From a virus (Duplodnaviria; Heunggongvirae; Uroviricota; Caudoviricetes): 64,000 bases of DNA. Every line of letters starts with the position of its first letter. Within the stretch, counting starts at the first letter, position 1. This document shows, piece after piece, positions 10,217 through 57,226 of the stretch. The stretch lies in IMG/VR virus record IMGVR_UViG_3300029641_000003. The stretch is one strand, 5' to 3'. The notes beneath the pieces were generated by a model, which saw nothing but the letters and a program-made list of their open reading frames with translations, was not told where the DNA came from and did not search any database. The position numbers were made by a program, and so were the translations under genes.

Positions 10217-10250
10217 TGTGTTAGAAAATAAAACTCAATTATCTAACACA
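10217..10250. promoter_or_regulatory. operator: inverted pair TGTGTTAGA(N16)TCTAACACA
   Basis: 9-bp perfect inverted repeat of the dispersed TGTGTTAGAAAAT motif, just upstream of the rdgC start. Confidence 0.5.
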
Positions 10251-18918: not shown

Positions 18919-19253
18919 GCCCCTTTAATCACGGAGATTTCGTTTCCCGCACGATAGCGGCGGGGAACGGAACTCTCCATCAGGTCACGAATTACTCCCG
19001 CTTCACGCAGTTTCTCTGTCTCCCAGTATCTGTTTGTCACCAGGTCAAGGCTGGCAATGACTTTATGCCGGTCATTCGGCATTGCTTCTTTTTCAGCCAT
19101 TATCATCAGTGAGAACTCTTCATCCAGTAGAATTTGATACCAGACTTTTGACAGTTCCAACTCTCTAATGAGGGTGAAGCGCCGCTCAATTGTGGCGGAA
19201 GAATAAGTGAAATCAATTTTTTTCGTGGCATACATTTTGCTGTGTCCGGTCAC
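18915..19253 (-). CDS. hypothetical protein (112 aa)
   Basis: ATG ORF convergent with secreted-protein genes. Confidence 0.4.
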   Translation of the reverse strand: MTGHSKMYATKKIDFTYSSATIERRFTLIRELELSKVWYQILLDEEFSLMIMAEKEAMPNDRHKVIASLDLVTNRYWETEKLREAGVIRDLMESSVPRRYRAGNEISVIKGA

Positions 19254-19291
19254 TTAGTAGTTAAAGCCCCGGCATGACCGGGGCAAATCTA

Positions 19292-20233
19292 TTAACTAAC
19301 AATCCAGTCAGTCGCTGCTACATCTTCTGGCTGTAAATCAATCGCACAGATCTTGCCGTCGCGAATGGTGCGCCAGTTTTTCCGTGAGCCTCTTTCGGGC
19401 CATACCCAGACACTTTCAGGCCAGGATGCTCGACGGCATACGGTTGCATACCCTGTTTTAATCTTCTCTCTGGCGGTATGCAACGACAGGTTTGCCTTTG
19501 GACTTTCAGGCACAGGATGGTGAATGGCCTGAAATAGCCCCATCCTGGGATGATACCAGCGTTTGTTGCGTGGTTCAGCCTCCGACATAACCTGCTTAAA
19601 GGCTTTCCGGAAGGGGGCCAGGGCCACAATGGAACGTCGCGCAAGCAAACCATCGGGAGTTAAAAACTCATGCGTATCAGTGGGTATCCGGTAAGCGTTG
19701 ACCAGGTTACGGCATTTGGCTTCAGTCAGGCCGCATTTTGCCGCCAACTGGCGGTAGCCAATGTAGCCTTCCGGAATATTGCCTTTCTTTATTTGCTCGA
19801 CGGTTTCAGCGACTTTGGACACTTGTGCCGATACTTCGGCTACCTGGGCATTAACGGCGTTGATCCGGCGTTCATGCTCAAGATGCATTTGCGCCATTTC
19901 GGCCAGGATTTCGGCTTTTGATTTTAACGGTCCCCTGGCATTCTCCAGTTCGCGCCAGCGGTCCACCAGCCGGGCGGTGAATTCCGGAGAGAGCTGCGCG
20001 ACGACAATGATGCTGTCTCGTTTTCCTTGTTCTCCTTCAAAGATGTAAGCCTTGGAAAATCGACGAGGGCCAACTGATTGTTTATTTTCAATTTCCTCAA
20101 TTTGAGGAAATTGAATGACACCACCTTTAGTTAATACTTCAATGGTTCGCTTCACATTATCATGACGCTTACCTACCAGTTCCGCGATCTCAATGCTGGT
20201 CATTGTCGCTTTTTGAGAGATGGACAGATTCAT
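19292..20233 (-). CDS. antirepressor-like protein (Rha/Ant family), immI-like copy 1
   Basis: N-terminal TMTSIEIAELVGKRHDNVKRTIEVL Rha-type domain; start overlaps stop of upstream small gene (ATGA); paralog at 55936-56643. Confidence 0.6.
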   Translation of the reverse strand: MNLSISQKATMTSIEIAELVGKRHDNVKRTIEVLTKGGVIQFPQIEEIENKQSVGPRRFSKAYIFEGEQGKRDSIIVVAQLSPEFTARLVDRWRELENARGPLKSKAEILAEMAQMHLEHERRINAVNAQVAEVSAQVSKVAETVEQIKKGNIPEGYIGYRQLAAKCGLTEAKCRNLVNAYRIPTDTHEFLTPDGLLARRSIVALAPFRKAFKQVMSEAEPRNKRWYHPRMGLFQAIHHPVPESPKANLSLHTAREKIKTGYATVCRRASWPESVWVWPERGSRKNWRTIRDGKICAIDLQPEDVAATDWIVS

Positions 20234-20448
20234 CAGTGCACCTCCACGCAGTTCATTGGCAGATTCCAGTAATTGAGGATCTCCATCGCATCAAGAGTGA
20301 AGCGTGCGGCAAAAATGCAGGGGTCTTCGGGAAGGTATGAGCGCGCCTCTGCTTCGGTAGCAGCCATTACGCAGATATAGAGGTGTTTTTGGCAGGAATA
20401 GAAACGCCAGATAAATTCAGAATGAGTTGGGGTAGGGATAGTAGCCAT
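20233..20448 (-). CDS. Icd-like small protein, copy 1
   Basis: 71 aa with EFIWRF...AATEAEAR, motifs I recall from Icd-like proteins; AGGAGG RBS; paralog at 56643-56867. Confidence 0.5.
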   Translation of the reverse strand: MATIPTPTHSEFIWRFYSCQKHLYICVMAATEAEARSYLPEDPCIFAARFTLDAMEILNYWNLPMNCVEVH

Positions 20449-21249
20449 ATTGGCAGCCTCCTTTGACTAAGTTAAGGAGCTACCGCGTGAGGTTCCAATC
20501 TCAATGGCGGTAGCACTGACTGGGTTGGAACTACCGGCGTCAAAGGGAACCGGCCTGCCTTTCGGCAGCCCAGCCAGCACTACCATTGATCTCTGAGCTA
20601 AACGCTACGTATGGCTGTGCGATGGCATGACACAAAAAAAGACGCTTTCGGCGTCTGTGTCGCCTTTGACATTATCCGGGGTTCCAATCCCGGCACCCGT
20701 TTTTCTAAGGTGCCGTAGAAATATACCCCACGATAATGCCAGGGCGCAACAGTCAGTATTTTATGCTTTGGCAGATTTCTTTCGGGCTTGCTTGCAGGCG
20801 TAGGCCATTGCTTTAGCTTTCACTTCATCCAGCTTTCCGGTGATCACTTCTTTTCCGAGAGTGACAAACCAGTCATAGCAACCGCCAGTGATGTTCTGGA
20901 TTTGAAAGTTGAGATAGCGAACGGTCATTTTGACACCCCCAGCGCGAGTAAAGAATGCAGATTATCGCGTGAGTGGCGGACAACGAGTGATGGGAAAAGA
21001 CAGTAGCTGTTCATAGTGTAGTGACTCCTTGCTTTCGGAGCCGCCATCGACTGTTCCACGGTCTGGTGGCGGCGCAATAAAGGTTGGAACACCGTGAGTC
21101 AACGGGGGCTTTTCAGCCACCTATATTGCACCGCCATTGGTATGGCGGCGGCAATCATACGAAAAACCAAACGGTTTGTCTCAAAAAGTTGACCGGTGTA
21201 CCAATCGGTTGTGAATGTACAACGGCGAATTTCACAATTCAACTTAAAA
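20449..21249 (-). other. structured untranslated leader between operator and icd-like gene; candidate c4-like antisense RNA region
   Basis: About 800 bp with no credible ORF, several hairpins (GCTACCGC...GCGGTAGC; CTGCC-TTTC-GGCAG) and an internal intrinsic terminator (GACGCCGAAAGCGTC plus T7) at 20630-20665. Confidence 0.3.
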
Positions 21250-21260
21250 TGTTAGAAAAT
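21250..21260. promoter_or_regulatory. operator half-site TGTTAGAAAAT
   Basis: Exact core motif at the head of the immI-like leader. Confidence 0.4.
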
Positions 21261-21835
21261 TAATTTATTAATTCAGTCACCATCTGATACAACGTCATTT
21301 CATCAGCATTGTGCCGCCTGAAATCTGCTTTGCCGCCTATTTTTCCATCAGCATGAACAGGGACCAACCAAGGGTATTGCTCGCGGATCTCTGCTGGCGC
21401 TGCGTGTTGATGGTGCCATTTACACAAAGGGAGGACGTATTTATGCGCGTTCTCTGCTGTTCTCCCGAAGATGTGGTGCAGGGATACCACAGGGCTATGC
21501 TGTCCGTGCATATGGCAGGCAATGCAGGGGAGAGCACCGATGGCAGTTTGTATCCGGCGCTCATCTGCTGTGAGTGTTCTGCCTTTCAGGCCGCGTGACG
21601 CGCGAGTTTTTTTGACAGGAGCAGAAGCGGCCTTCTCTTTTCTTCGCTGTTCATATTGCTTCGCTTTTTCAATTTTCTTTTGCCGATATTCAGGCGATGC
21701 GGCTTTTTCTCGCGCACGCTGCTGCTGGCGTTGAGCTTGCTGAAGACGCTTTGCCCTTTGTTCCTCCCGCCATTTCGGATCAGCCAGTTTTTGCAGGGCT
21801 TTTTGTGTCTGTTTCTCCCAATAGCTTTGCTTCAT
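21260..21835 (-). CDS. ref: Ref-like HNH endonuclease (track ORF extends to TTG at 21877)
   Basis: LPCIACHMHGQHSPVVSLHHIFGRTAENAHKYVLPLCKWHHQ HNH motif; Lys/Arg/Gln-rich N-terminus; start taken at ATG 21835. Confidence 0.7.
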   Translation of the reverse strand: MKQSYWEKQTQKALQKLADPKWREEQRAKRLQQAQRQQQRAREKAASPEYRQKKIEKAKQYEQRRKEKAASAPVKKTRASRGLKGRTLTADERRIQTAIGALPCIACHMHGQHSPVVSLHHIFGRTAENAHKYVLPLCKWHHQHAAPAEIREQYPWLVPVHADGKIGGKADFRRHNADEMTLYQMVTELIN

Positions 21836-21879
21836 AGAAATACCCGGTTTGTCTACATCGCCGCTATGGTTGATCAAAA

Positions 21880-21913
21880 TGTGTTAGAAAATCAAAATTG
21901 ATTTTCTAACACA
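21880..21913. promoter_or_regulatory. 34-bp near-perfect palindromic operator TGTGTTAGAAAATCAA-AA-TTGATTTTCTAACACA
   Basis: 16-bp arms are exact reverse complements; sits between ref and a divergent plus-strand operon. Confidence 0.55.
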
Positions 21914-41047: not shown

Positions 41048-41078
41048 AAACATGATGTATTAGAAAATTAATATTAAT
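41048..41078. promoter_or_regulatory. operator pair TATTAGAAAAT ... AATTTACTAACAC
   Basis: Inverted motif-family half-sites upstream of lpa-like gene. Confidence 0.45.
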
Positions 41079-41087
41079 TTACTAACA

Positions 41088-42497: not shown

Positions 42498-42573
42498 TGG
42501 TGGCCCCTACCGGACTTGAACCGGTGACCGTGCGATTATGAGTCGCCCGCTCTAACCACTGAGCTAAAGGGCC
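42498..42573 (-). tRNA. tRNA-Ile (anticodon CAU, ileX-like)
   Basis: 76 nt GGCCCTTTAGCTCAGTGGTTAGAGCGGGCGACTCATAATCGC...GGTTCAAGTCCGGTAGGGGCCACCA; cloverleaf with CAU anticodon and encoded CCA; near-identical to E. coli ileX as recalled. Confidence 0.8.
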
Positions 42574-42710
42574 AGATTACTGTTAATTACGCTTACGCTT
42601 TTTGCCAGAACCGCGTAAGGCTTTTGCCGCTTGCTCTACCCCGTATGCAACCACCAGCAGAAACAATAATGTCCACTCCGGGTTTTTATCGGCAAACGCC
42701 CAAAAATTCA

Positions 42711-42944
42711 TCACTTACAGCCACCTTGCATTTCCTCGGATAATTCATTGACTTTAGTGCTCAATAAGTAATCAAAGTAAAGATAAAACACAAAAGTAAC
42801 GATAGTGCTTAAAGTGTCTGAAATTGCGTATTTCAGCTCAGGAAGCATGACAAAGCAGACAAATAGCGGAAGAAATAACTGCACTATGCACAGACTCTCC
42901 TTCCACAACCATCTATATCTGAAGTCTGACAACAAAAACTCCAT
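42711..42944 (-). CDS. small membrane protein (77 aa)
   Basis: Hydrophobic segments; stop overlaps start (TGATG) of a further 41-aa hydrophobic ORF at 42583-42711. Confidence 0.35.
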   Translation of the reverse strand: MEFLLSDFRYRWLWKESLCIVQLFLPLFVCFVMLPELKYAISDTLSTIVTFVFYLYFDYLLSTKVNELSEEMQGGCK

Positions 42945-43194
42945 TGCTTGAAACTTTATTAGATTGCGGTGCCTGGTGCCTCCAGGTGACGTTAACCAGT
43001 TAACAATTAACGCCGGGATGTTTGACTTAACTATTAAGGAAAATTGTTTTAACTGTTCCGCGTGCGCTTAGCCGCATTCACCGCAATGGTAAGAGCATTT
43101 GGCTGGCTGGGCGGCGATGACGCCTGTACGCATTTGGTGATCCGGTTCTGCTTCCGGCATTCGCTTAATTAGCCAAATACTCTTAACGTTGCGC

Positions 43195-43281
43195 TGGCGG
43201 AGAGTAATGGAATCGAACCATCATCGCTTGCGCAATGGGACGGTTTTCAAGACCGCTTGAGCACCATGCTCCCTACTCTCC
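43195..43281 (-). tRNA. tRNA-like gene, type II (long variable arm), possible tRNA-Ser(UGA)
   Basis: GGAGAGT/ACTCTCC 7-bp acceptor stem, discriminator G plus CCA, T-arm GATGG-TTCGATT-CCATT, anticodon loop CTTGAAA; D-arm atypical. Confidence 0.4.
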
Positions 43282-43529
43282 AGTGATTGTGGTGGTCGGT
43301 ACTGATCTCCGACTGCGCCTCTTTTTTTCATAGCCCATAAGGCCGGTCAGTGCGCTTGATGACTGAGGCATCGATATTTACTACGCCGCCTCGTTGCCAT
43401 AGGGCGGACTTGCGCGCCAGCAACGCGCATTCACCACAACGGAAAGAGCATTTATGGCTCGCATCGCGGGAAGCGGGAAAAAACCCACGGTAGAGAGTCG
43501 AACTCTACAAATGCTCTTACCTGTTGTGT

Positions 43530-43605
43530 TGGTGCCGGTTAACGGACTCGAACCGCTGACATCCTGCTTACAAGGCAGGCGCTCTACCAACTGAGCTAAA
43601 CCGGC
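43530..43605 (-). tRNA. tRNA-Thr (anticodon UGU)
   Basis: GCCGGTTTAGCTCAGTTGGTAGAGC...CTTGTAA...GGTTCGAGTCCGTTAACCGGCACCA canonical cloverleaf. Confidence 0.85.
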
Positions 43606-43607
43606 AT

Positions 43608-43682
43608 TGGCGATGGTGGATGGATTCGAACCACCGACCAGTTGGTTAACAGCCAACTGCTCTACCACTGAGCTACACCATC
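43608..43682 (-). tRNA. tRNA-Asn (anticodon GUU)
   Basis: GATGGTGTAGCTCAGTGGTAGAGC...CTGTTAA...GGTTCGAATCCATCCACCATCGCCA; 2 nt from tRNA-Thr. Confidence 0.85.
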
Positions 43683-44995: not shown

Positions 44996-45027
44996 TGTTA
45001 GAAAAACAATTTTAATTTTCTAACATA
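44996..45027. promoter_or_regulatory. operator: inverted pair ATGTTAGAAAA(N10)TTTTCTAACAT
   Basis: 11-bp perfect inverted repeat; another half-site TTTCTAACAC at 44867-44876. Confidence 0.5.
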
Positions 45028-48235: not shown

Positions 48236-51200
48236 TTAGGCCGCATCGGCGATTATTTTACGCAGTTCATCTACCGAGTAACGCGTAGATACCATCCATG
48301 CCGGACGGTCAAAGTTCACATCAGCAACCGGGTTTGCTTCAAAATTCCAGAAACGCCCGCCAATCTTCTTAATCGCGTCTTTGGCGTTTCGTATTGTCGA
48401 GGAACCAGGTTGGTCGGCAATGAGATAAACCGCGCCAACGTCCTCGCTGACGCTCCACCAGCGCCCGCGAACACGCGCCTTAGCGCGAATCGGCTTATCA
48501 TTAACCACAATGATATAGTCATCATTCGCCGCTTCATCAGCTCTGGCTTCAGCCACTGCCGCCTGCTCTTCTCTTTTGCTTTCAGCCTGTTCAAGCCTTT
48601 CCGCGATCTCTGATTCGGTGGCCCCGCCGTTTTTCAGCGATACATAGTCTTGCCACGTAGCTGATTTGAGCGCATCCGGCAACTCATTCACATAGTCACC
48701 GTCTTTCAACTCACGGGCGCGGCGGGTAGCCATTTCTACCAGGCGATTAACAGAAACAGCATCAGCAAAATCGTCCTTACTAATTTTTTCATCAAATGCA
48801 TTGATGACAGCCCCCACCTTAATCCACTGTGCTGCCGGTGATTCCAGGGGGTTATCAGCCTGGACTATGGCGAGTTTCGCTCCATCTACCCCATTATTCG
48901 CCAGCTGTTCCAGTGCCGCCCATCCATCTGCATCACTGAGTGATTTATATTGCTCAAACAATGCATCGCGCCAGGCCACCAGCGCAGAACGTGTTTTTTC
49001 GATCTTCGTCTTAATTTTCGCGATCTTGACCTGATTAAACATCCGTTCAATATCATCGATATTGCTAAAGGCTTTCATCCTGCCCTGGAATAAACGGTAT
49101 GCCAGCACGGTCCTCCAGAATGATTCCAGACCTTCTCCGGACGGTTTGCGGAACAAGCTAAGAATATCTTCAGAAGTGACTTTATTAAGCGAACGACCTG
49201 ACAGACCACGCCCAGCCATCCAGTTTTCGAACTCCTGGGCAACATCATCCATCGTTGCCTGTGCGCCCCATGCCTGCATTCCCTGGATGTAATCATACCC
49301 ATACAATGCCTGGAGGAATCCCTCACCGTCCACGATATTCAGCGGGTTATCACTGGCTTGTATTTTTGCCACTTCACGCTTCAGCGCCTCATCGTTGCCA
49401 TCTGGATATATCCATCGTTCAGGTGCTATATCCGATGCTCGCCCGATTTTTTGGCCTATCACGCCATCATAGGCCGATGACAGCGCGATCTGACCATCAT
49501 CTGTGCGATATGCCCAGTATTTAATAGCTGACCCACCGCCCCATGCATTACCAGGTTTACCAGCAATAACATTCATTACCCCATTGCGAATAGCATCATA
49601 GAACTGATCGCGAGTAAGTATTGTTGATAGCTGGTGGCACTGAACACCACGCGCAGCCGTTGCGCGCGATTCAGCTACCCCCTCTTCAAAAGTTACCGCT
49701 TCAATCACAGAGTCAAACGGCAATGTAACGATTGACCCCGGTGATCGAGCGTAACGACTTGCTCTATCCAGCCAGGCGATACGGCAGAGGTATTGTGCTT
49801 TTTCACCGTCAATTTTTTCCACCCGGACAATCGCTGTTGTTTCGCGATCATCAATGACTGCACGGTAATAACTACCTTTATGCAACAGGATATTCTTGTC
49901 AGTGCGCATATATTCCTGTGGGTTCTGAATAACATCGATACTGATATCCAGCACACCAGACTTAATAGCGCGCTCCACATCACCACGAGAGCGTTTCATT
50001 ATGGTATCCGCGTCTTTTGCCCTGGTGATCGCAAACCGCAGCACCCGCGCACGTTTTCTGTAGCTACTCAACTGCTCAAGCGCGAATTTTTGCCCATTCC
50101 TGTTCGTACCCGCTTTTATCAGGTCGTCAAGATTTCGCTGGTAATACTCTATCTGTTCCATCGCGCTTTTCAGTTCTGTCTCCATCATGCCGATATCTTT
50201 TCCAGCGGCGTTTGCCGCTTTCAGGTAGATATCGAGAGCATTGTTGGCCTCGCGCTGTGCTTTCAGTTTCAGACGTTCTTCACGCTCTTGCGCCTGGCGA
50301 GCCATGATTGCGCGGCGTTCTTCCGGGTTTGCCGCCAGCATAATGGCGCGTTCATCAGCATCATCCGCATCACCATTGGCGATCTCTGACATGTCGGAGG
50401 TCATCACCATCTTGATCCAGTCTTTCTTACGTTTCAGCGTATCCAGACGGAAGTCGTCGAATGTGCCTTTGCCACAATAGTAGTGAACATTGACCTTCTC
50501 TTGCGGTGAACCTACGCGCGCACCGCGCCCATTTCGTTGGTCGATACTGGCTGGTGTCCAGGGTAGTGTCAGGTGGTGGATATCGGTTGTCCCGATATGC
50601 AGGTTAATACCTACTTCAGCCTTCTTGTTACAGATAATGATGCGCGTGCGCCCTTCGTTATAGTCGGCGGCAATGCCTTCCATACCCTCAAGGCCAGCAT
50701 CATTTTTAGCTGAGAGATAATCCTCATATTGGGCAAGTTTGCTGTAGTAGGTTTCCCATGCCCCTTCTTTGTATTCACCGTTTTTATTCGGAGTAGGTTC
50801 AGTCGGCTTATTCACCTTCTTCAGCTTGATGCCGCCAGCCTGGCTAACGGTCGTCGCATTGATAATGCCTATCTCCTGCTCCGGCATTTGCAGTGCACTG
50901 GCGATAATACGGCGCAGCTTCTGGTGCTGGGCTTTTTCATCAATGAAGACAATTTGTTTACCGTTCTTCAGACCTTCACGAAGGTTTTCGATCAGCGCGG
51001 CATACTTCGGCGGGATGGGGTGTGATACCTGCTGCAGATCAATCCCGGCGGCAGCAATGGCCTTCAGTATTTCAGCTTCCAGTTCAATGCTGGCGCGTAT
51101 TTCAACATGCACCGGATGTTCACTAAAGGTGGTCTTCACTACCTTGCTGGTACGTGTATTGACCAGTCCACCAGCGCCGTCTTCTTCGACCTCGTCTGCA

Positions 51201-54200
51201 TCATCTGCCACTTTACCGCCAGCTACTTTTGGCAGGGCATCAGCAATAGCTTTTACCTTGTCTGCAAGCTCAACGGGGAACTGGAATGTAATCGCACTGG
51301 CATACAGATCCGGATCTATAGCAACCTTATCCATGTCGCGGATGATGGAGAAGATGAAATCATCCGGTTTTTCGTTTGTGATATGCCCGTTTTCATCAAC
51401 CGTCAGCGCATCTTTACTACTTAACTCCTGTGCACGCTTACGAAGTTCTTCATAAGCAGCCTCCTGCTCCCCTGTCATCGGGATCTGCAAGGTATTCTCG
51501 ACAATATCAGGGATTTTAACCGTCGCCCCGACGTCCGCAGCAGTCTTCAGAGTAGTCCAGCGATGGAAAATACCACGCAGGCCATCAAGGTTCTGGAAGC
51601 CAACCAGCCCCTGCTTCTCTTCCACTTCCCCGGAAATTTTCTGGACCTGAACTGTGGCTGTTTTACCAAACACACGAACGAAATCATCAGGCGTAATGAT
51701 GCCCATGCGCATCCACTCTTCCTGCGGAATGACAGTAGACAGCATGTTGAAGGCATCAATCGGACTGTTCACCAGCGGTGTTGCCGTCAGCATGACTACA
51801 CCACGCCCGTTGTTGCGTTTCATCATGTACGCAGCTTTTACAGCCATGTCGCGGGCCATCTTGGATACTGCCGGGTTAGGCAAATATGCCAGTTGTCCCG
51901 CTTCACGCCCGGCATTAAAGGAGTTGCGGTAGTTATGCCCCTCGTCGGCAATCACGCTATCGAAGTTCATATCCTCAAAGTACGGGATATTCTGCTTCTT
52001 CGTTGTACCGGTATTCGCGGCCTGATCCTTAATCTTGTTCTTCTTCTGCGCATCACGGTGTTTACCAGACGCCAGGTCAAGACGCCCCATTTCCACAGCA
52101 TTAAAGACAGCTTGCTGTGAGTTCTCCTCGATGGTTTTTTCTCGTAGCGGGATAGACGCGAATTGTTCTTTTGTCATGATGACCGTTCGCCAATTTGACG
52201 ACGGGATCATGTTCATGCGCTGAACGATAACGGCGCTGGCGGACTCTTTCACAACATTTCTGGTAAGAGGCTGCCCGTTACTGTCGAGGCGGGGTTCGCC
52301 ATTTTCATCAAGCACCGGCGCGGTCAGAATATTGCCGTCTTCATCACGAACCTCATCCAGACCGATAAACATCATATTGGCGAAGGCATCAGCACTGTAG
52401 AAGCTCTGTGCCTCGTGATACCAGTTCTGATAAACCGCCTTCGGAACAACAATACACGTGCGTTTAGTGCGACCTGTTTCGAAGTTATACGCCTCAAGCG
52501 CAAGCGCAGTCGTGGTTTTACCCAGCCCGGTACCAAATCCCATGATGCCGCGCCCATCTTCTGACAAGCGACGAACTTCTTCATTCTGATAAGTCAGAGG
52601 AATGCGCTTTCCACTAATCCCTTCCAGGCCAAGCGGTGCGTTAGAGTGCGTAAACGGAATGAAGCCATTGAATGCGTCGTTATAGTCACGGGCTATCTGA
52701 TCCGCCTGCGGGTGGGTGCGTAACCAGTCGTTAAAACTAACTTCCAGTTGAGCAATTTTATCCAGGTACTCGTTAGCGTTCTGCCCACGCGGTTTAACAC
52801 CGTTCAGGTAGTTTTCTAACTGGTTCAGGAAGCCGTCTTTATTGTTGGCCTTCTTGAACTCATTCCCGTTTTTGCCGTTTACGGTTCGTAGTTGATAGCC
52901 GGTAAATACCCCGTCCTTACCTTCGTAATCGTCCGGAGATACCAGAATGCCATCGACGACCTTCAGATCAGGTTCAGTGTACTTAAACTCGTCATAGCCC
53001 TGCTCTGCCAGGAACTCTTTTATCAAGCGGCGATCCAGCCAGCGGGCGTTCAGATTAACGGTGACTTTATTTAGTGGCGTGAAAATGCGTTTCTCTTCGA
53101 TTTTCGCCAACTGACGCTCAAAGTTCGCTTTCTGCTCACCTGTTGACGCATCACGCCAACCCACCAGCAATGTTGTTTTGGTTGCAATATCGCCGCTGGT
53201 GGCGCGGTCCATCGGCAGCAGGCAGCCATACCCATCAATAGCGATATCATCAAATTTCGCCAGGTATTCAAGGGCCGCGTCGTCGTCCTCTGGCAGTTCA
53301 CCAGCAAACGCCTCACGAAAGTCGCCCAGCGTTATAGGATTAAGGGCTACATCACTGAAAAGATGTGCTATCACTTGTTCAGGACGTGTAAAGTCAATAC
53401 CGGCAGCACCATCCGTTACATCAAGTCGCCCTGCCAGAAGGTCAGAAGTGGAACCATCCTGTTTCACATTGCCAGTGAACGTCATCCAGTTTTTAGCGCC
53501 AGCTTCTGCAAGCCCATTCAGCTTAATCGCGTGCGGTGGTCCATACTTCGCAACTTCTGCTGCCGCCAGGCGGGATGCATCTGCCAGTTTGTCATCAACG
53601 TTCACCCCCAGGTTACGCAAATCAAGTGCCTTGTTGATCAACTGCCCTATCAACGCACCGCGCATAACGCGCTCCCTGTCTTTTTCTCGCTGTTTGCCAG
53701 CAAAGCGAATCATTGCTGCCACTTCATCACTGACAACCGATGGATAGTCGGACGCGATCGCCGATATCTGGTCCCATGACAAAGCCAGAATCCCGTTTGT
53801 TGACTGGAACGCGATCTGCAGATCGCCAAACGTCGAAACACCATATCGACTTACATCAAGCGCGGAGGATTTGGTTGTCGTGTCCTTAACCCATTTCAGA
53901 CCATCAAACTCATGCCAGATACCGCCTACAAGGCGTTTATCGCCCACTTTCGCGCCCTGCCATGCCTGAGTAGTTACGCCGAGCAAATCCCAATTGATGC
54001 GACTATCAAAGCGACGAGATAGCGCGGTTTTCATCGACTCATTGGATACACGACCGTCTTTTTTCACCACCAGGGTATTGCGGAAGCTGGTGCGTTCCAT
54101 GTCGCCGTAAACAAATCGCTTCCCTTCGGTTGTAAACCATTTCCCTTTGAGGAAGGTATCCCAAAGGACGTTTGCCGATTTGAGCGTTGCATCATCCGTG

Positions 54201-55084
54201 TCGGGGATCATCTCCAGGAAGGTTTCCGGGTGTTTACGCAATACCCATACGTCCACCACCGTATCTGTACCGGATTCGCTGAACGTACCAGAAGGCATAC
54301 GATGCGCGCCCAAAAATTCCGCTTTACGGCTGACTTTATCGCGCAATTTTTTGTATTTCGTACCATCGGTCATGCCATTCGGCACCACCAATACAATTAG
54401 TCCACCAGGCTTAACCTTGTCGATTGTGCGCAGCACAAAGTAATTGCCAACGTTCTTCTCGTTTGCATATGCCGGATCAAGCCCGGCGACACCGGAACGC
54501 CCTTCACCAAACGGTACGTTACCAACAGCGTGATCATACATTGCGTCTTTCGCCGCCAGCGCCTCAAACGCCCCGATATTCACATCGTCTTCCGGGTGCA
54601 AAAGCTGGTTTATTCGACCGGAAATCGGAGACAGTTCGGCGCTGGTCATTATCATGCCCTGCCGTTTTGTCTCCTGGAAAATACCTGTGCCCGCTGATGG
54701 TTCCAGTACGTGCCCGCCATCAATACCGTAGTCAGCAAACAGATCCCATATACCTTCAGCCATAAACTGTGGCGTGTAGTATTCGTATTGGCTGCCCTCA
54801 CCATCTGTCAGGCCGCCTTCACCGGTATACCCGGCAAGAATCTGACGTTGTTCGTCAGTTAATTTCGCCCCATCGAAGCCGGGCGGAAGGGAATTAAGAA
54901 GATTTACTGCGGCGTTGTTTGCTGCCCGGCGTGTTTTCTGAATACTGACGCCATCGACTTTCTTAACGCCAAAGGTCACTACAGCTCGCGGTTTATGCAA
55001 CCGACTAACAATTTCAATCAGCGCCCCAATGCTGGTGGCCTGGCTAATTGAATCAATTATTTTGTCCAAAGGAAGCCCCCTCAA
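48236..55084 (-). CDS. darB: DarB-like antirestriction protein (N6-adenine methyltransferase plus SF2 helicase, 2282 aa)
   Basis: Single 6.8-kb frame; SAM motif VLEPSAGTG in N-terminal region; helicase Walker A GFGTGLGKTT and DEGH box (SVIADEGHNYRNS); size matches P1 DarB. Confidence 0.85.
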   Translation of the reverse strand: MRGLPLDKIIDSISQATSIGALIEIVSRLHKPRAVVTFGVKKVDGVSIQKTRRAANNAAVNLLNSLPPGFDGAKLTDEQRQILAGYTGEGGLTDGEGSQYEYYTPQFMAEGIWDLFADYGIDGGHVLEPSAGTGIFQETKRQGMIMTSAELSPISGRINQLLHPEDDVNIGAFEALAAKDAMYDHAVGNVPFGEGRSGVAGLDPAYANEKNVGNYFVLRTIDKVKPGGLIVLVVPNGMTDGTKYKKLRDKVSRKAEFLGAHRMPSGTFSESGTDTVVDVWVLRKHPETFLEMIPDTDDATLKSANVLWDTFLKGKWFTTEGKRFVYGDMERTSFRNTLVVKKDGRVSNESMKTALSRRFDSRINWDLLGVTTQAWQGAKVGDKRLVGGIWHEFDGLKWVKDTTTKSSALDVSRYGVSTFGDLQIAFQSTNGILALSWDQISAIASDYPSVVSDEVAAMIRFAGKQREKDRERVMRGALIGQLINKALDLRNLGVNVDDKLADASRLAAAEVAKYGPPHAIKLNGLAEAGAKNWMTFTGNVKQDGSTSDLLAGRLDVTDGAAGIDFTRPEQVIAHLFSDVALNPITLGDFREAFAGELPEDDDAALEYLAKFDDIAIDGYGCLLPMDRATSGDIATKTTLLVGWRDASTGEQKANFERQLAKIEEKRIFTPLNKVTVNLNARWLDRRLIKEFLAEQGYDEFKYTEPDLKVVDGILVSPDDYEGKDGVFTGYQLRTVNGKNGNEFKKANNKDGFLNQLENYLNGVKPRGQNANEYLDKIAQLEVSFNDWLRTHPQADQIARDYNDAFNGFIPFTHSNAPLGLEGISGKRIPLTYQNEEVRRLSEDGRGIMGFGTGLGKTTTALALEAYNFETGRTKRTCIVVPKAVYQNWYHEAQSFYSADAFANMMFIGLDEVRDEDGNILTAPVLDENGEPRLDSNGQPLTRNVVKESASAVIVQRMNMIPSSNWRTVIMTKEQFASIPLREKTIEENSQQAVFNAVEMGRLDLASGKHRDAQKKNKIKDQAANTGTTKKQNIPYFEDMNFDSVIADEGHNYRNSFNAGREAGQLAYLPNPAVSKMARDMAVKAAYMMKRNNGRGVVMLTATPLVNSPIDAFNMLSTVIPQEEWMRMGIITPDDFVRVFGKTATVQVQKISGEVEEKQGLVGFQNLDGLRGIFHRWTTLKTAADVGATVKIPDIVENTLQIPMTGEQEAAYEELRKRAQELSSKDALTVDENGHITNEKPDDFIFSIIRDMDKVAIDPDLYASAITFQFPVELADKVKAIADALPKVAGGKVADDADEVEEDGAGGLVNTRTSKVVKTTFSEHPVHVEIRASIELEAEILKAIAAAGIDLQQVSHPIPPKYAALIENLREGLKNGKQIVFIDEKAQHQKLRRIIASALQMPEQEIGIINATTVSQAGGIKLKKVNKPTEPTPNKNGEYKEGAWETYYSKLAQYEDYLSAKNDAGLEGMEGIAADYNEGRTRIIICNKKAEVGINLHIGTTDIHHLTLPWTPASIDQRNGRGARVGSPQEKVNVHYYCGKGTFDDFRLDTLKRKKDWIKMVMTSDMSEIANGDADDADERAIMLAANPEERRAIMARQAQEREERLKLKAQREANNALDIYLKAANAAGKDIGMMETELKSAMEQIEYYQRNLDDLIKAGTNRNGQKFALEQLSSYRKRARVLRFAITRAKDADTIMKRSRGDVERAIKSGVLDISIDVIQNPQEYMRTDKNILLHKGSYYRAVIDDRETTAIVRVEKIDGEKAQYLCRIAWLDRASRYARSPGSIVTLPFDSVIEAVTFEEGVAESRATAARGVQCHQLSTILTRDQFYDAIRNGVMNVIAGKPGNAWGGGSAIKYWAYRTDDGQIALSSAYDGVIGQKIGRASDIAPERWIYPDGNDEALKREVAKIQASDNPLNIVDGEGFLQALYGYDYIQGMQAWGAQATMDDVAQEFENWMAGRGLSGRSLNKVTSEDILSLFRKPSGEGLESFWRTVLAYRLFQGRMKAFSNIDDIERMFNQVKIAKIKTKIEKTRSALVAWRDALFEQYKSLSDADGWAALEQLANNGVDGAKLAIVQADNPLESPAAQWIKVGAVINAFDEKISKDDFADAVSVNRLVEMATRRARELKDGDYVNELPDALKSATWQDYVSLKNGGATESEIAERLEQAESKREEQAAVAEARADEAANDDYIIVVNDKPIRAKARVRGRWWSVSEDVGAVYLIADQPGSSTIRNAKDAIKKIGGRFWNFEANPVADVNFDRPAWMVSTRYSVDELRKIIADAA

Positions 55085-55738: not shown

Positions 55739-55951
55739 TCAAGTTACGATCCAATCATTACCGACTGCATCCGCCGTCGATAAATCGACTTCCCGGATCT
55801 GGTATCCATTAATACAAAACCATCCAGTAGTAGAGCTATTATCAGGCCAGACCCATACACCAACACTCCATGCTTTACGGCGGCACACTTCAGCCTGTCC
55901 TTCCCTGATTTTTTTTACCGCCTGCATGATGTCCATCACTCGCCTCCCCAA
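55739..55951 (-). pseudogene. C-terminal segment of Ant-like protein in shifted frame
   Basis: Product aligns with the C-terminal tail of the copy-1 Ant (CRRKAWSVGVWVWPD vs CRRASWPESVWVWPE; DWIVT vs DWIVS) but is in another frame from 55936-56643. Confidence 0.4.
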
Positions 55952-56643
55952 CCGATTACCTGGAATTGCCCCATCCTTGGGTGATACCAGCGTTTTCCTC
56001 GGTGTTCAGCCTCCGACATCATCAGGGTAAAGGCATTCATGAAGGGAGATAAGGCCACAATAGTACGACGCGACAATACCCCCTCTGGCGTCAAAAACTC
56101 ATGCGTATCTGTGGGGATCCGGTAAGCGTTGACCAGGTTACGGCATTTGGCTTCAGTCAGGCCGCATTTCGCCGCCAGTTGGCGGTAGCCAATGTAGCCT
56201 TCTGGTATGTTGCCTTTCTTGATCTGCTCGACGGTTTCAGCGACCTGGCTAACCTTTGACTCAACAGCATGAAGCCGCTTTTGCTGCTGAACTGCATTCG
56301 CAGCCATTGCAGCGATCATCTCTATTTCGGTCAACGGCTGGCGTACTTGTTCTTCCAGTTCGCGCCAGCGGTCCACCAGCCGGGCGGTGAATTCGGGAGA
56401 GAGCTGCGCAACGACAATAATGCTGTCTCGTTTGCCTTGCTCGCCTTCGAAGACGTAAGCCTCAACGCCACGACGCAATCCTAAGTTATTGATTTTTTCG
56501 AAAACAGCCATTGGCGGTTTTCGGATAATGCTTCGAGCAACCATACGCTCAATACTACGTTTAACGTCAGAGTGTTGACTTCCCACCAGCTCCGCAATCT
56601 CAATGCTGGTCATTGATAGTTTTTCGAGAATGCAGATATCCAT
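55936..56643 (-). CDS. antirepressor-like protein (Rha/Ant family), immI-like copy 2, C-terminally truncated by frameshift
   Basis: Paralog of 19292-20233 with identical central block (VFEGEQGKRDSIIVVAQLSPEFTARLVDRWRELE); ends early at GWGGE. Confidence 0.6.
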   Translation of the reverse strand: MDICILEKLSMTSIEIAELVGSQHSDVKRSIERMVARSIIRKPPMAVFEKINNLGLRRGVEAYVFEGEQGKRDSIIVVAQLSPEFTARLVDRWRELEEQVRQPLTEIEMIAAMAANAVQQQKRLHAVESKVSQVAETVEQIKKGNIPEGYIGYRQLAAKCGLTEAKCRNLVNAYRIPTDTHEFLTPEGVLSRRTIVALSPFMNAFTLMMSEAEHRGKRWYHPRMGQFQVIGWGGE

Positions 56644-56867
56644 CAGTGAGCCTCCGCAATGCCGGGATTGGTAATATTGCGATACCAGGGATTAGTGTTT
56701 GGTTGTGGGGAAGTAGAGAAACGACCAGTGAGAACGCCATACTGATCAGGGATCAGAGAACGGGCTTCTTTTTCAGTTGCGGCAATTGCGAAGTGATCAC
56801 AATGTTTTTGCAGGGAGTGGAAACGCCAGATGAATTCTGGGCGTGAGCAATGATTGGCATTAACCAT
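56643..56867 (-). CDS. Icd-like small protein, copy 2
   Basis: EFIWRFHSLQKH...AATEKEARS, paralog of 20233-20448; start of ant overlaps its stop. Confidence 0.5.
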   Translation of the reverse strand: MVNANHCSRPEFIWRFHSLQKHCDHFAIAATEKEARSLIPDQYGVLTGRFSTSPQPNTNPWYRNITNPGIAEAH

Positions 56868-57196
56868 AGTTACGGCCTCGTAAGTTGATAAACAACCTGC
56901 GACCCGCTGTCAAACAGGTGGCAGGACGTGACAGGGTTGACAGACTGGCACTTACGAAACCAGCAGGCCGAAGCCTCCCCATCACGCCCCACCATAATTC
57001 GGGCGTAACGTGGTTTTACGGACACAAAAATACCGCAATATCGGAAATGTGCGGTTGTCCGCGTAAGTATTCAGGCTGTCAAACCTGGTCGCAGAATTTG
57101 CTACGACGGCATGAATATAAGCCTGAACATTAGAAAGATCAACAGAATTTTTATCAAATGCTGTTTTTTAGTGACAATGTAAATCATACATTCTTG
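56868..57196 (-). other. structured untranslated leader, copy 2 (candidate c4-like RNA region)
   Basis: No ORF; hairpin CCGCA...TGCGG followed by U-run ending TTTTTGTGTC, the same tail as in copy 1. Confidence 0.3.
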
Positions 57197-57226
57197 ATTA
57201 GAAACATCAATTTAATTTTCTAACAT
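57197..57226. promoter_or_regulatory. operator pair ATTAGAAACAT ... TTTTCTAACAT
   Basis: Inverted motif-family half-sites at head of immI-like copy 2. Confidence 0.45.

What the first reader, a model, noticed from the sequence alone, without database searches (positions are those of the whole stretch)
20233..21260. immI-like module: long structured leader with internal terminator ahead of icd-like and ant-like genes
An operator half-site (21250) is followed by about 800 nt without a credible ORF but with several stable hairpins and a strong intrinsic terminator (20630-20665). Only then come an Icd-like small ORF and a translationally coupled Rha/Ant-like gene. In P1 the equivalent locus encodes the c4 antisense RNA that controls icd-ant expression. 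This leader is a candidate for a cis-encoded regulatory RNA, but I could not identify the complementary segments by eye.
Basis: partly seen in the sequence, partly recalled or inferred. Interest (0 to 1): 0.65.

Follow-up and report, generated by a model that had tools for sequence, protein, structure and literature searches.

The report
P1-type c4 antisense-RNA antirepressor switch

Summary
The guess is confirmed. On the minus strand, Rfam finds C4 antisense RNA at 20590-20503 (77 bits, threshold 45) and isrK at 20713-20635 (63 bits, threshold 50).

C4's a' (GUUCCAA) and b' (CCUUUGAC) match a2 and b2. b2 overlaps the Shine-Dalgarno sequence of the icd-like gene. They also match a1/b1 inside the isrK element. 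Sizes and spacing are as in P1.

Close relatives (D6, RCS47, another plasmid) carry all four combinations of two a alleles and two b alleles. In each, all three copies change together, which is strong evidence that the pairing is functional.

The "800-nt leader" is really two tandem cassettes:
- **Upstream cassette A:** a sub-threshold C4-like RNA, a truncated icd remnant and a real 55-aa gene, behind a repressor operator.
- **Cassette B:** its own promoter, then isrK, C4, icd and a Rha-type antirepressor.

The window is a D6-like plasmid prophage with another c4 module at about 57 kb. A second c4/icd region in D6-like prophages is already noted in the literature. This is a new member of a known kind, of low to moderate interest.

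The parts
21250..21259 (-). Monovalent repressor operator-like site, TTTTCTAACA, just after the ref stop codon.
   Evidence: The motif is dispersed across the window: 23 sites against 5.35 expected, 0 of 100 shuffles. It is conserved in relatives. P1 has an analogous C1 operator, Oc4/Op51, ahead of c4.
21214..21242 (-). Promoter-like site for cassette A: TTGAAT, 17 nt, TACATT.
   Evidence: Read from the sequence. The positions are conserved in relatives although the surrounding sequence has diverged. Inferred, not mapped.
21154..21182 (-). Second promoter-like site: GAGACA, 17 nt, TATGAT, immediately before C4-A.
   Evidence: Found by the consensus scan. Both hexamers are conserved in all relatives aligned. 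Inferred.
21062..21141 (-). C4-A, a C4-like RNA that scores below the family threshold and has a shortened b' hairpin.
   Evidence: Rfam C4 gives 42.3 bits against a threshold of 45, E 2e-6, and 36-40 bits in six relatives. Fold z = -5.31. It is 88-91% conserved where the flanks drop to 56-74%. In L003/L006 it lies 44 nt before an intact Icd-like gene.
21052..21058 (-). a2-like target of C4-A: UGGAACA, pairing with UGUUCCA.
   Evidence: It is invariant in relatives.
21022..21027 (-). b2-like target of C4-A: GAGUCA, pairing with the whole 6-nt loop UGACUC. It overlaps the Shine-Dalgarno sequence AAGGAG at 21030-21025.
   Evidence: It is retained in L001, L003, L004 and L006.
20925..21014 (-). 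29-aa leader ORF, a remnant of an Icd-like gene. Its stop overlaps the start of orf55 (ATGA).
   Evidence: The window and D6 lack about 140 nt that are present in L003/L006, where the ORF is a 61-aa Icd-like protein (NF033153, 47 bits). It stays open, at 29-31 aa, in 30 of the 31 IMG/VR copies; in the other it is fused in frame to orf55.
20761..20928 (-). orf55, a conserved 55-aa protein of unknown function.
   Evidence: phrog_7786 at 1.8e-43. Found only on D6-like contigs of about 90 kb. Synonymous changes dominate: 11 synonymous against 2 non-synonymous versus L003, and 5 against 0 versus D6.
20720..20749 (-). Promoter-like site for cassette B: TTGCGC, 18 nt, TATATT. The -10 hexamer ends 6 nt before the isrK 5' end at 20713.
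   Evidence: The geometry matches Gifsy-1 isrK (TTGACA, 17 nt, TATATT, 6 nt) and the annotated P1 promoter P1c4/P51b relative to the isrK match. L007 is the same. Inferred by homology.
20635..20713 (-). isrK-type RNA. a1 (UUGGAAC, 20687-20681) sits in the loop of hairpin 2. b1 (GUCAAAGG, 20670-20663) is single-stranded. The terminator stem is 20656-20640, followed by U7.
   Evidence: Rfam isrK at 62.7 bits against a threshold of 50. It overlaps a c4-a1b1 match of 22 bits. Terminator. Complementarity.
20503..20590 (-). C4-B, the c4-type antisense RNA. b' (CCUUUGAC, 20546-20539) is in the loop of hairpin 2. a' (GUUCCAA, 20531-20525) is in the single-stranded junction.
   Evidence: Rfam C4 at 77.1 bits against a threshold of 45. 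The MFE equals the family architecture, z = -5.03.
20492..20498 (-). a2 target: UUGGAAC.
   Evidence: It covaries with a' and a1 in D6 and RCS47.
20460..20467 (-). b2 target: GUCAAAGG, overlapping the icd Shine-Dalgarno sequence AAGGAGG at 20464-20458.
   Evidence: It covaries with b' and b1 in D6, L004 and L007.
20233..20448 (-). icd-like gene, 71 aa.
   Evidence: NF033153 at 49.3 bits. 63% identical to P1 Icd, E 5e-28.
19292..20233 (-). Rha-family antirepressor, 313 aa, translationally coupled to icd (UGAUG). It has an extra C-terminal domain of about 75 aa.
   Evidence: PF09669 at 37.5 bits and phrog_63 at 1.5e-60. 66% identical to the Ant of the second locus over residues 1-237. Not similar to P1 Ant1.

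Best explanation
The region holds two tandem c4-type translational switches of a D6/P1-like plasmid prophage.

**Cassette B (20749-19292, minus strand)** is the one the finding is about.
1. Transcription starts at about 20713 from its own promoter.
2. Most transcripts stop at the intrinsic terminator. This gives an isrK-type RNA of about 80 nt that carries the sites a1 and b1.
3. Read-through transcripts contain the C4 RNA, then a2 and b2, then icd and ant.
4. C4 is cut out of the precursor. In P1 and P7 the 5' cut is made by RNase P.
5. C4's two exposed segments, a' in the junction and b' in the hairpin loop, pair with a2 and b2. b2 overlaps the icd Shine-Dalgarno sequence.
6. Ribosomes are therefore kept off icd. 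Because ant starts on the icd stop codon, ant is not translated either. In P1 the untranslated mRNA is also terminated by Rho.
7. The a1/b1 copy on the short RNA, or in cis on the precursor, competes for C4 and so relieves repression. This is what was shown for IsrK in Gifsy-1.
8. The Rha-type Ant would then inactivate the prophage repressor.

The a/b sequences define an immunity specificity, as between P1 and P7.

**Cassette A (21259-20761)** is a repressor-controlled unit. It has a diverged C4-like RNA whose loops match the ribosome-binding region of a truncated icd remnant. That remnant is coupled to the 55-aa gene.

**What is shown here:** family membership, the exact complementarities, covariation, gene identities and synteny. 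**What is inferred from P1 and Gifsy-1:** promoter use, processing, repression and the decoy action.
For: - **Family hits.** Rfam C4 at 77.1 bits and isrK at 62.7 bits, both above threshold.
- **Complementarity.** There are exact 7-nt and 8-nt matches to both flanks. No run among 20,000 shuffles of the flanks reproduces all four.
- **Layout.** Sizes and spacing equal the annotated P1 a1/b1/c4/a2/b2/icd layout.
- **Covariation.** All three copies change together in each element:

| Element | a sites | b sites |
|---|---|---|
| window | UUGGAAC | GUCAAAGG |
| D6 | UUGAGAC | GCAAAAGG |
| L004 | UUGGAAC | GCAAAAGG |
| RCS47 | UUGAGAC | GUCAAAGG |
| L007 | UUGGAAC | CACUAAAG |

.
- **The experimental model has the same layout.** Gifsy-1 has isrK at 79 bits, c4-a1b1 at 48 bits, C4 at 69 bits, and b2 at the anrP ribosome-binding site. 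Published work there shows terminator read-through, a processed STnc1160 RNA, trans-activation of anrP translation by IsrK and translational coupling (PMC4825925).
- **Predicted fold.** The MFE of the 284-nt UTR pairs a1/b1 with a'/b' in cis, like the published structure A.
- **Genes.** Icd is 63% identical to P1 Icd. Ant is Rha-family.
- **Published role.** The c4 function in P1/P7 and its role in heteroimmunity are summarised in PMC12197685 and PMC8546580.
- **Cassette A.**
Against: - No expression, processing or repression data exist for this element. All dynamic steps are taken over from P1 and Gifsy-1.
- RNAcofold does not predict that free C4 opens its targets: -64.6 kcal/mol for the complex against -63.5 for the separate RNAs. 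Loop-loop kissing is poorly modelled by this method.
- The Ant here is not homologous to P1 Ant1/2, so its target repressor is assumed.
- The role of a1/b1 is only 'putative' in the P1 annotation. The Gifsy-1 authors interpret IsrK as acting on mRNA structure rather than on a free C4-like RNA.
- For cassette A the score is below the Rfam threshold. Pairing is only 7 + 6 nt. No double-sided compensatory change was seen. One relative (L007) has orf55 without any C4-A.
Confidence: 0.85

Rival explanations
1. P4-type mechanism. The C4-like RNA acts mainly on transcription. By pairing with a1/b1 and a2/b2 on the nascent transcript, it causes premature termination, as P4 CI RNA does with seqA and seqC. 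On this view it does not block the icd ribosome-binding site, and a1/b1 is a termination-control site rather than a decoy.
For: The region is 73% identical to the P4 immunity region over 187 nt (H82). The Gifsy-1 authors raise this analogy themselves. b1 lies only 6 nt upstream of the terminator stem.
Against: b2 overlaps the Shine-Dalgarno sequence, and icd-ant are coupled exactly as in P1, where translational repression is primary. In Gifsy-1, constitutive STnc1160 did not reduce IsrK-driven read-through toxicity. The isrK fold shows no evident antiterminator that b1 pairing would remove.
Confidence: 0.15
2. Gifsy-1 orf45-type mechanism. The 39-codon ORF that overlaps C4 (AUG at 20586, stop at 20467) is translated. 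It is the real upstream ORF whose translation opens the icd-ant ribosome-binding site. The short isrK RNA activates this ORF by remodelling the mRNA, and no free C4 repressor is needed.
For: Gifsy-1 orf45 starts at the homologous AUG in the C4 5' stem (position +107), and its translation was shown to be needed for anrP expression. PGAP calls the same ORF an 'ash family protein' in relatives.
Against: The ORF has no NCBIfam hit here. A review reports that orf45 is conserved in nucleotide sequence but variable in amino acid sequence, as expected for an RNA gene. In the window this ORF ends 19 nt before a separate, well-conserved icd with its own Shine-Dalgarno sequence. Three-way covariation of short a/b segments fits RNA-RNA pairing, not a peptide.
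Confidence: 0.1
3. Cassette A is a decaying duplicate with no RNA function. On this view the C4-like element at 21141-21062 is a relic. orf55 is simply expressed from the operator-controlled promoter.
For: The score is below the Rfam threshold in every copy, at 36-42 bits. The icd is truncated. No compensatory pair changes were found. L007 expresses orf55 without the element. The upstream a1/b1-like hairpin is not conserved in L003, L004 or L006.
Against: The element is 88-91% conserved where its flanks are 56-74%. The fold is very stable, z = -5.3. The loop and junction and their matches at the ribosome-binding site are invariant. The leader ORF is kept open and coupled in 30 of 31 copies, and in the other it is fused in frame to orf55.
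Confidence: 0.35

Closest known systems
Phage P1/P7 immI operon (c4 antisense RNA, icd, ant1/ant2)
   Same: - The order is the same: promoter, a1, b1, c4, a2, b2 at the icd ribosome-binding site, icd, then a coupled antirepressor.
- The complementary segments are 7 nt and 8 nt, with spacing within 1-3 nt of P1.
- C4 belongs to the same Rfam family.
- Icd is 63% identical to P1 Icd.
- A repressor operator lies upstream.
- Specificity alleles exist, like those behind P1/P7 heteroimmunity.
   Different: - The a/b sequences differ: UUGGAAC/GUCAAAGG here against UUGACAG/GUUAGUG in P1.
- The terminator after b1 is stronger and isrK-grade.
- The antirepressor is a Rha-family protein unrelated to Ant1/2.
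- The module sits next to ref rather than at the canonical immI position. That position is occupied in this window by another c4 module at about 57 kb.
- An extra C4-like cassette lies directly upstream.
Salmonella Gifsy-1 isrK / STnc1160 (orf45) / anrP locus
   Same: - An isrK-family RNA with a1 in a hairpin loop, b1 single-stranded, and a leaky intrinsic terminator.
- It is followed by a C4-family RNA and a b2 site at the ribosome-binding site of an antirepressor operon.
- The promoter-to-5'-end geometry is the same.
- The predicted cis pairing of the isrK middle part with the C4 region matches the published helix b-I.
   Different: - Gifsy-1 has no icd. b2 sits directly on the anrP ribosome-binding site, and the coupled upstream ORF is orf45, which overlaps C4.
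- The a/b alleles differ (AUUGGCG/AUCACCG).
- The host element is a lambdoid prophage, and the output feeds AntQ.
Satellite phage P4 immunity (CI RNA with seqA/seqC)
   Same: The RNA is homologous: 73% identity over 187 nt. The logic is the same, with a processed small RNA flanked by two complementary target copies.
   Different: P4 CI causes premature transcription termination of the replication operon. There is no icd or ant. This mechanism was not tested here.
Phage P22 sar RNA
   Same: It is also an antisense RNA that blocks translation of an antirepressor.
   Different: It is a true cis-antisense transcript from the opposite strand. It is unrelated in sequence and structure. This is a functional analogy only.

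Membership tests
Rfam C4 antisense RNA (RF01695): element at 20590-20503 | The covariance-model score reaches the curated gathering threshold. | tested here: met
   77.1 bits against a threshold of 45, full-length match to model positions 1-87.
Rfam C4 antisense RNA (RF01695): element at 20590-20503 | Architecture: a long closing stem enclosing two hairpins, with b' in the second loop and a' in the single-stranded junction. | tested here: met
   The MFE and centroid folds reproduce it, z = -5.03. Alignment to the model consensus is shown.
P1-type immI (c4-icd-ant) | a' and b' are complementary to a2/b2, with b2 at the ribosome-binding site of the downstream ORF. | tested here: met
   The matches are 7 nt and 8 nt exact, and b2 overlaps AAGGAGG. 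Covariation is seen in D6, L004, RCS47 and L007.
P1-type immI (c4-icd-ant) | A second copy of the targets (a1/b1) lies upstream of c4 on the same transcript. | tested here: met
   a1 is at 20687-20681 and b1 at 20670-20663. Both covary with a' and b'.
P1-type immI (c4-icd-ant) | The downstream gene is Icd-like and is translationally coupled to an antirepressor. | tested here: met
   NF033153 at 49 bits and 63% identity to P1 Icd. There is a UGAUG overlap with a Rha-family Ant. The Ant itself is not a homolog of P1 Ant1.
P1-type immI (c4-icd-ant) | c4 is a processed RNA of about 77 nt (5' end made by RNase P) that represses ant in trans and sets immunity specificity. | not testable with these tools
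   This needs RNA analysis and genetics. The P1 annotation and reviews are cited.
Rfam isrK (RF01394): element at 20713-20635 | The covariance-model score reaches the threshold, and the RNA ends in a rho-independent terminator. | tested here: met
   62.7 bits against a threshold of 50, model positions 1-77. The terminator has a 6-bp GC-rich stem followed by U7.
Rfam isrK (RF01394): element at 20713-20635 | It is a primary transcript from its own promoter, binds Hfq, and activates the downstream antirepressor in trans. | not testable with these tools
   Only a promoter-like site at the homologous distance was found. The activity is known for Gifsy-1 only.
Rfam C4 antisense RNA (RF01695): upstream element C4-A at 21141-21062 | The covariance-model score reaches the curated gathering threshold. 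| tested here: not met
   42.3 bits in the window and 36.5-40.2 bits in relatives, against a threshold of 45. The b' hairpin loop is 6 nt rather than about 12.
Rfam C4 antisense RNA (RF01695): upstream element C4-A at 21141-21062 | The loops are complementary to the ribosome-binding site of a downstream Icd-like ORF, and the pairing is supported by covariation. | tested here: inconclusive
   UGUUCCA pairs with UGGAACA (7 nt) and UGACUC pairs with GAGUCA at the Shine-Dalgarno sequence (6 nt). The element lies before an intact Icd-like gene in L003/L006. All these segments are invariant, so there is no covariation, and the stems show only one-sided changes.

The most novel reading that the evidence does not exclude
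The c4 cassette may be a portable, re-addressable translational switch that D6-like phages carry in three copies.

- The diverged upstream C4-A RNA would be a functional third antisense regulator. It would control the unknown 55-aa protein through a vestigial icd leader ORF.
- In this particular genome C4-A shares its a' with cassette B. It could therefore also pair with the icd-ant target of cassette B (7 + 6 nt), forming a hierarchy of antisense RNAs.
- The cargo of such switches may extend beyond antirepressors to anti-defence functions. The extra C-terminal domain of this Ant, which stands alone after icd in a metagenomic relative, marginally matches the Thoeris anti-defence Tad2-like family.
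Probability: 0.25. Interest if true: 0.5.

Novelty: new member of a known kind. Interest (0 to 1): 0.3.

Why it matters
- **Annotation.** This gives a correct reading of a locus that public records cover with spurious 'hypothetical' and 'ash family' CDSs. It places the lytic-switch control of a common family of E. coli, Salmonella and Shigella phage-plasmids in a known framework.
- **Evidence on a1/b1.** The four-way allele mosaic (two a alleles by two b alleles, each with three matched copies) is compact natural evidence that both a1/b1 and a2/b2 pairings are under selection. The role of a1/b1 is still labelled 'putative' in P1.
- **Link between two literatures.** Side by side, P1 immI, the Gifsy-1 isrK locus and this module are one kind of switch, although isrK and c4 are usually described separately.
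- **Limits.** None of this changes the known mechanism. Only cassette A and the Ant C-terminal domain might hold something new.

Tried and rejected
1. **One 800-nt leader starting at the operator: rejected.** A real gene (orf55) and a separate promoter-like site lie in between. Many P1-like plasmids share only 20756-20266.
2. **Hairpin plus T-run at 21206-21185 as a conserved a1/b1 or terminator for cassette A: rejected.** It is not conserved in L003, L004 or L006.
3. **Conserved cross-regulation of cassette B by C4-A: rejected as a general feature.** D6 has a different a allele in cassette B but the same C4-A.
4. **Covariation support for C4-A: weak.** Zero of 25 pairs show double-sided changes. 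The IMG/VR scan found only near-identical D6-type copies.
5. **Tad2-like identity of the Ant C-terminal domain: unresolved.**
   - Pfam gives only 10 bits for the window fragment and 25.2 bits (threshold 25) for the L007 homolog.
   - There is no PDB sequence match.
   - The homolog set is shallow.
   - The AlphaFold model is unusable at pLDDT 51, so no fold search was run.
6. **The 39-aa ORF over C4:** no NCBIfam hit.
7. **Papers not held in the library:** the D6 genome paper (PMC5800970), the primary P1 c4 papers (PMC312442, PMC196329) and the P1 genome paper. RNase P processing and Rho polarity therefore rest on my own knowledge of the P1 literature (Citron and Schuster 1990 and 1992; Biere et al. 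1992; Hartmann et al. 1995).
8. **RNAcofold of free C4 with its targets:** it predicts essentially no net gain. I treat this as uninformative for loop-loop kissing complexes.
Full report
**What the window is.** The region 19200-21900 is 90.5% identical to the P1-like plasmid prophage D6. The finding's stretch, 20200-21300, is 95.6% identical to D6 and up to 97.9% identical to E. coli plasmids of about 90 kb. All genes of the locus are on the minus strand, in this order:
- a Ref-type RecA-dependent nuclease, 21877-21260 (PF16786, 123 bits);
- the 'leader';
- an Icd-like ORF, 20448-20233;
- a Rha-family antirepressor, 20233-19292.

**Checking the observation.**
- The operator-like decamer TTTTCTAACA lies at 21259-21250. 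It is one of 23 copies in the window against 5.35 expected, and no shuffle of 100 reaches 23. Some copies form inverted pairs. This is the pattern of the dispersed P1 C1 operators, and P1 has such an operator ahead of c4.
- The terminator is real: stem 20656-20640 followed by U7.
- Icd is 63% identical to P1 Icd. The icd stop and the ant start overlap (UGAUG).
- The one point that does not hold is 'no credible ORF'. A 55-aa ORF at 20928-20761 belongs to phrog_7786 (1.8e-43). It is found only on D6-like replicons. Its changes are mostly synonymous: 11 against 2 versus L003, and 5 against 0 versus D6.

**The regulatory RNA.** A scan of the whole window against Rfam at curated thresholds gave two hits inside the leader:
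- C4 antisense RNA at 20590-20503, 77.1 bits against a threshold of 45;
- isrK at 20713-20635, 62.7 bits against a threshold of 50.

The C4 element folds into the family architecture, a closing stem enclosing two hairpins with a single-stranded junction, at z = -5.03.

- The loop of the second hairpin, b' CCUUUGAC (20546-20539), is exactly complementary to GUCAAAGG at 20467-20460. That site is b2 and overlaps the icd Shine-Dalgarno sequence AAGGAGG.
- The junction, a' GUUCCAA (20531-20525), is exactly complementary to UUGGAAC at 20498-20492, which is a2.
- Both targets occur a second time inside the isrK element. a1 at 20687-20681 lies in a hairpin loop, and b1 at 20670-20663 is single-stranded.
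- The sizes, 7 nt and 8 nt, equal those annotated in P1. The spacings a-to-b and b2-to-AUG differ from P1 by only 1-3 nt.
- In 20,000 shuffles of the two flanks, none reproduced all four matches.

**Covariation.** Close relatives provide a natural experiment. Against a nearly identical background, all three copies of each segment change together:

| Element | a1 = a2 | a' | b1 = b2 | b' |
|---|---|---|---|---|
| window | UUGGAAC | GUUCCAA | GUCAAAGG | CCUUUGAC |
| D6 | UUGAGAC | GUCUCAA | GCAAAAGG | CCUUUUGC |
| L004 (NZ_LT906557) | window type | window type | D6 type | D6 type |
| RCS47 | D6 type | D6 type | window type | window type |
| L007 (metagenomic) | window type | window type | CACUAAAG | CUUUAGUG |

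In L007, b2 is kept through a single G-U pair. P1 (UUGACAG / GUUAGUG), the window's second locus (UUGACAG / ACUUACG) and Gifsy-1 (AUUGGCG / AUCACCG) add further matched sets. This is strong evidence that C4 pairs with both a2/b2 and a1/b1, and that these short segments are specificity determinants that recombine, as known for P1 and P7.

**Relation to Gifsy-1 and P1.** Scanning Gifsy-1 itself shows isrK (79 bits) overlapped by the c4-a1b1 motif (48 bits). A C4-family RNA follows (69 bits), and b2 sits on the anrP ribosome-binding site. Conversely, the a1/b1 region of P1 matches isrK at 35 bits and is followed by a hairpin and U-run. So isrK is the a1/b1-bearing 5' part of a c4 module.

The -10 hexamer lies 6 nt from the isrK 5' end in Gifsy-1, P1 (annotated P1c4/P51b), L007 and the window. 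In the window the site is TTGCGC, 18 nt, TATATT at 20749-20720. Cassette B therefore very probably has its own promoter, and its 5' UTR is about 265 nt.

The published Gifsy-1 work shows four things (PMC4825925):
- partial read-through of the isrK terminator;
- a processed downstream RNA, STnc1160;
- more than 100-fold trans-activation of anrP translation by short IsrK;
- a requirement for translational coupling.

The MFE of the window's 284-nt UTR pairs a1/b1 with a'/b' in cis, equivalent to that paper's inactive structure A.

**The upstream half is a second cassette.** A further C4-like element lies at 21141-21062.
- It scores 42.3 bits, just under the threshold (E 2e-6), with z = -5.31.
- It is present at 36-40 bits in all relatives examined that carry cassette A.
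- It is 88-91% conserved where the neighbouring promoter region and ORF remnant fall to 56-74%.
- In E. fergusonii and S. dysenteriae plasmids (L003, L006) it sits 44 nt before an intact 61-aa Icd-like gene (NF033153, 47 bits). That gene is followed by orf55, and no isrK/C4/icd/ant comes after it.
- The window and D6 have lost about 140 nt of that icd. What remains is a 29-aa ORF whose stop overlaps the orf55 start.
- This leader ORF stays open in 30 of the 31 IMG/VR copies; in the other it is fused in frame to orf55.
- The element's 6-nt loop UGACUC matches GAGUCA at the Shine-Dalgarno sequence of the leader ORF. Its junction UGUUCCA matches UGGAACA at 21058-21052.
- These segments never vary, and the stems show only one-sided changes. 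The case for function therefore rests on conservation and context, not covariation. One relative (L007) has orf55 directly behind the operator and promoter with no C4-A.

**Most likely mechanism.** As in P1, processed C4 blocks the icd ribosome-binding site through a'/a2 and b'/b2. This silences icd and the coupled ant. The a1/b1-bearing short RNA, or the same sites in cis, titrates C4 and relieves repression, as in Gifsy-1. Ant then antagonises the prophage repressor.
- Shown here: family membership, complementarity, covariation and synteny.
- Inferred: transcription starts, processing, repression and decoy action.
- The rivals cannot be excluded by computation and are listed with their tests. 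They are P4-type termination control, translation of the ORF overlapping C4 as in Gifsy-1 orf45, and a relic cassette A.

**What is known already.** C4 and c4-a1b1 are published motifs (PMC2864571). [quoted passage not shown] At least one Stx-phage record annotates adjacent C4 and isrK. The D6 and PGAP annotations, however, list only CDSs here, some of which overlie the RNAs. I found no description of cassette A, of the four-way allele mosaic, or of the extra Ant domain, but the D6 genome paper was not available to me.

**Verdict.** This is a correct first-stage call on an element of a well-known kind. It is a new, uncharacterised member of the c4/isrK immunity-switch family. There are modest extras: a tandem diverged cassette, recombining specificity alleles and a variable cargo. 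Interest is low to moderate.

Noticed in passing
window 55936-57225 (-): A second complete c4 module lies at the position syntenic with P1 immI. It has operator-like sites, c4-a1b1 at 57120-57068 (55 bits), C4 at 56999-56914 (70 bits), icd at 56867-56643 and a 235-aa Ant at 56643-55936. Its a sites equal those of P1 (UUGACAG), but its b sites differ (ACUUACG against GUUAGUG in P1). It should therefore be orthogonal both to P1 and to the module in the finding.
   Followed up: partly
window 19295-19516 (-); L007 3153-3404: The Ant of the finding's locus equals the Ant of the second locus (66% identity over 237 aa) plus an extra C-terminal domain of about 75 aa. In a metagenomic D6-like contig, a stand-alone 84-aa homolog of that domain (32% identity, E 6e-9) replaces ant directly after icd. 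That homolog just reaches the Pfam Tad2-like (Thoeris anti-defence 2) threshold, at 25.2 bits against 25. The window fragment itself scores only 10 bits. The AlphaFold model was too poor to test the idea.
   Followed up: partly
window 10219-10248, 21882-21911, 41058-41087, 44996-45025 and single sites elsewhere: The operator-like decamer TTTTCTAACA occurs 12 times exactly and 23 times with at most 1 mismatch. Four of these form inverted pairs 10 nt apart, one of them in front of ref. This probably marks the regulon of the C1-type repressor of this phage. The motif differs from the P1 operator consensus.
   Followed up: partly
window 20467-20586 (-); L001 4031-4330; L004 2680-2799: Public annotations place protein-coding genes over the RNA elements. 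D6 orf84 lies on the opposite strand across isrK and C4. PGAP's 'ash family protein' lies on C4 itself. The latter ORF starts at the same AUG in the C4 5' stem as Gifsy-1 orf45.
   Followed up: partly
L011 (RCS47, NC_042128 103362-103819): In the P1-like phage RCS47, the cassette-B-type module (isrK, C4, icd and a different ant) sits between pacB and c1. This is in addition to a second matching place in that genome. Extra c4-icd-ant modules therefore seem to be mobile accessories inserted at different sites across the P1 supergroup.
   Followed up: partly
L008/L009 2672-4361: In two E. coli D6-like contigs, an IS200/IS605-type element (TnpB-like OrfB plus a Y1 transposase) is inserted at the 3' end of orf55. 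It changes the C-terminus of orf55 and takes the place of cassette B.
   Followed up: no
window 42498-43682 (-): A cluster of four tRNA genes: Met-type CAT, Ser-TGA, Thr-TGT and Asn-GTT. ARAGORN finds all four. Rfam at its threshold reports three and misses tRNA-Ser.
   Followed up: no
window 48236-55084 (-): A single ORF of 2282 aa lies just downstream of the second immI-like module. It was not examined.
   Followed up: no
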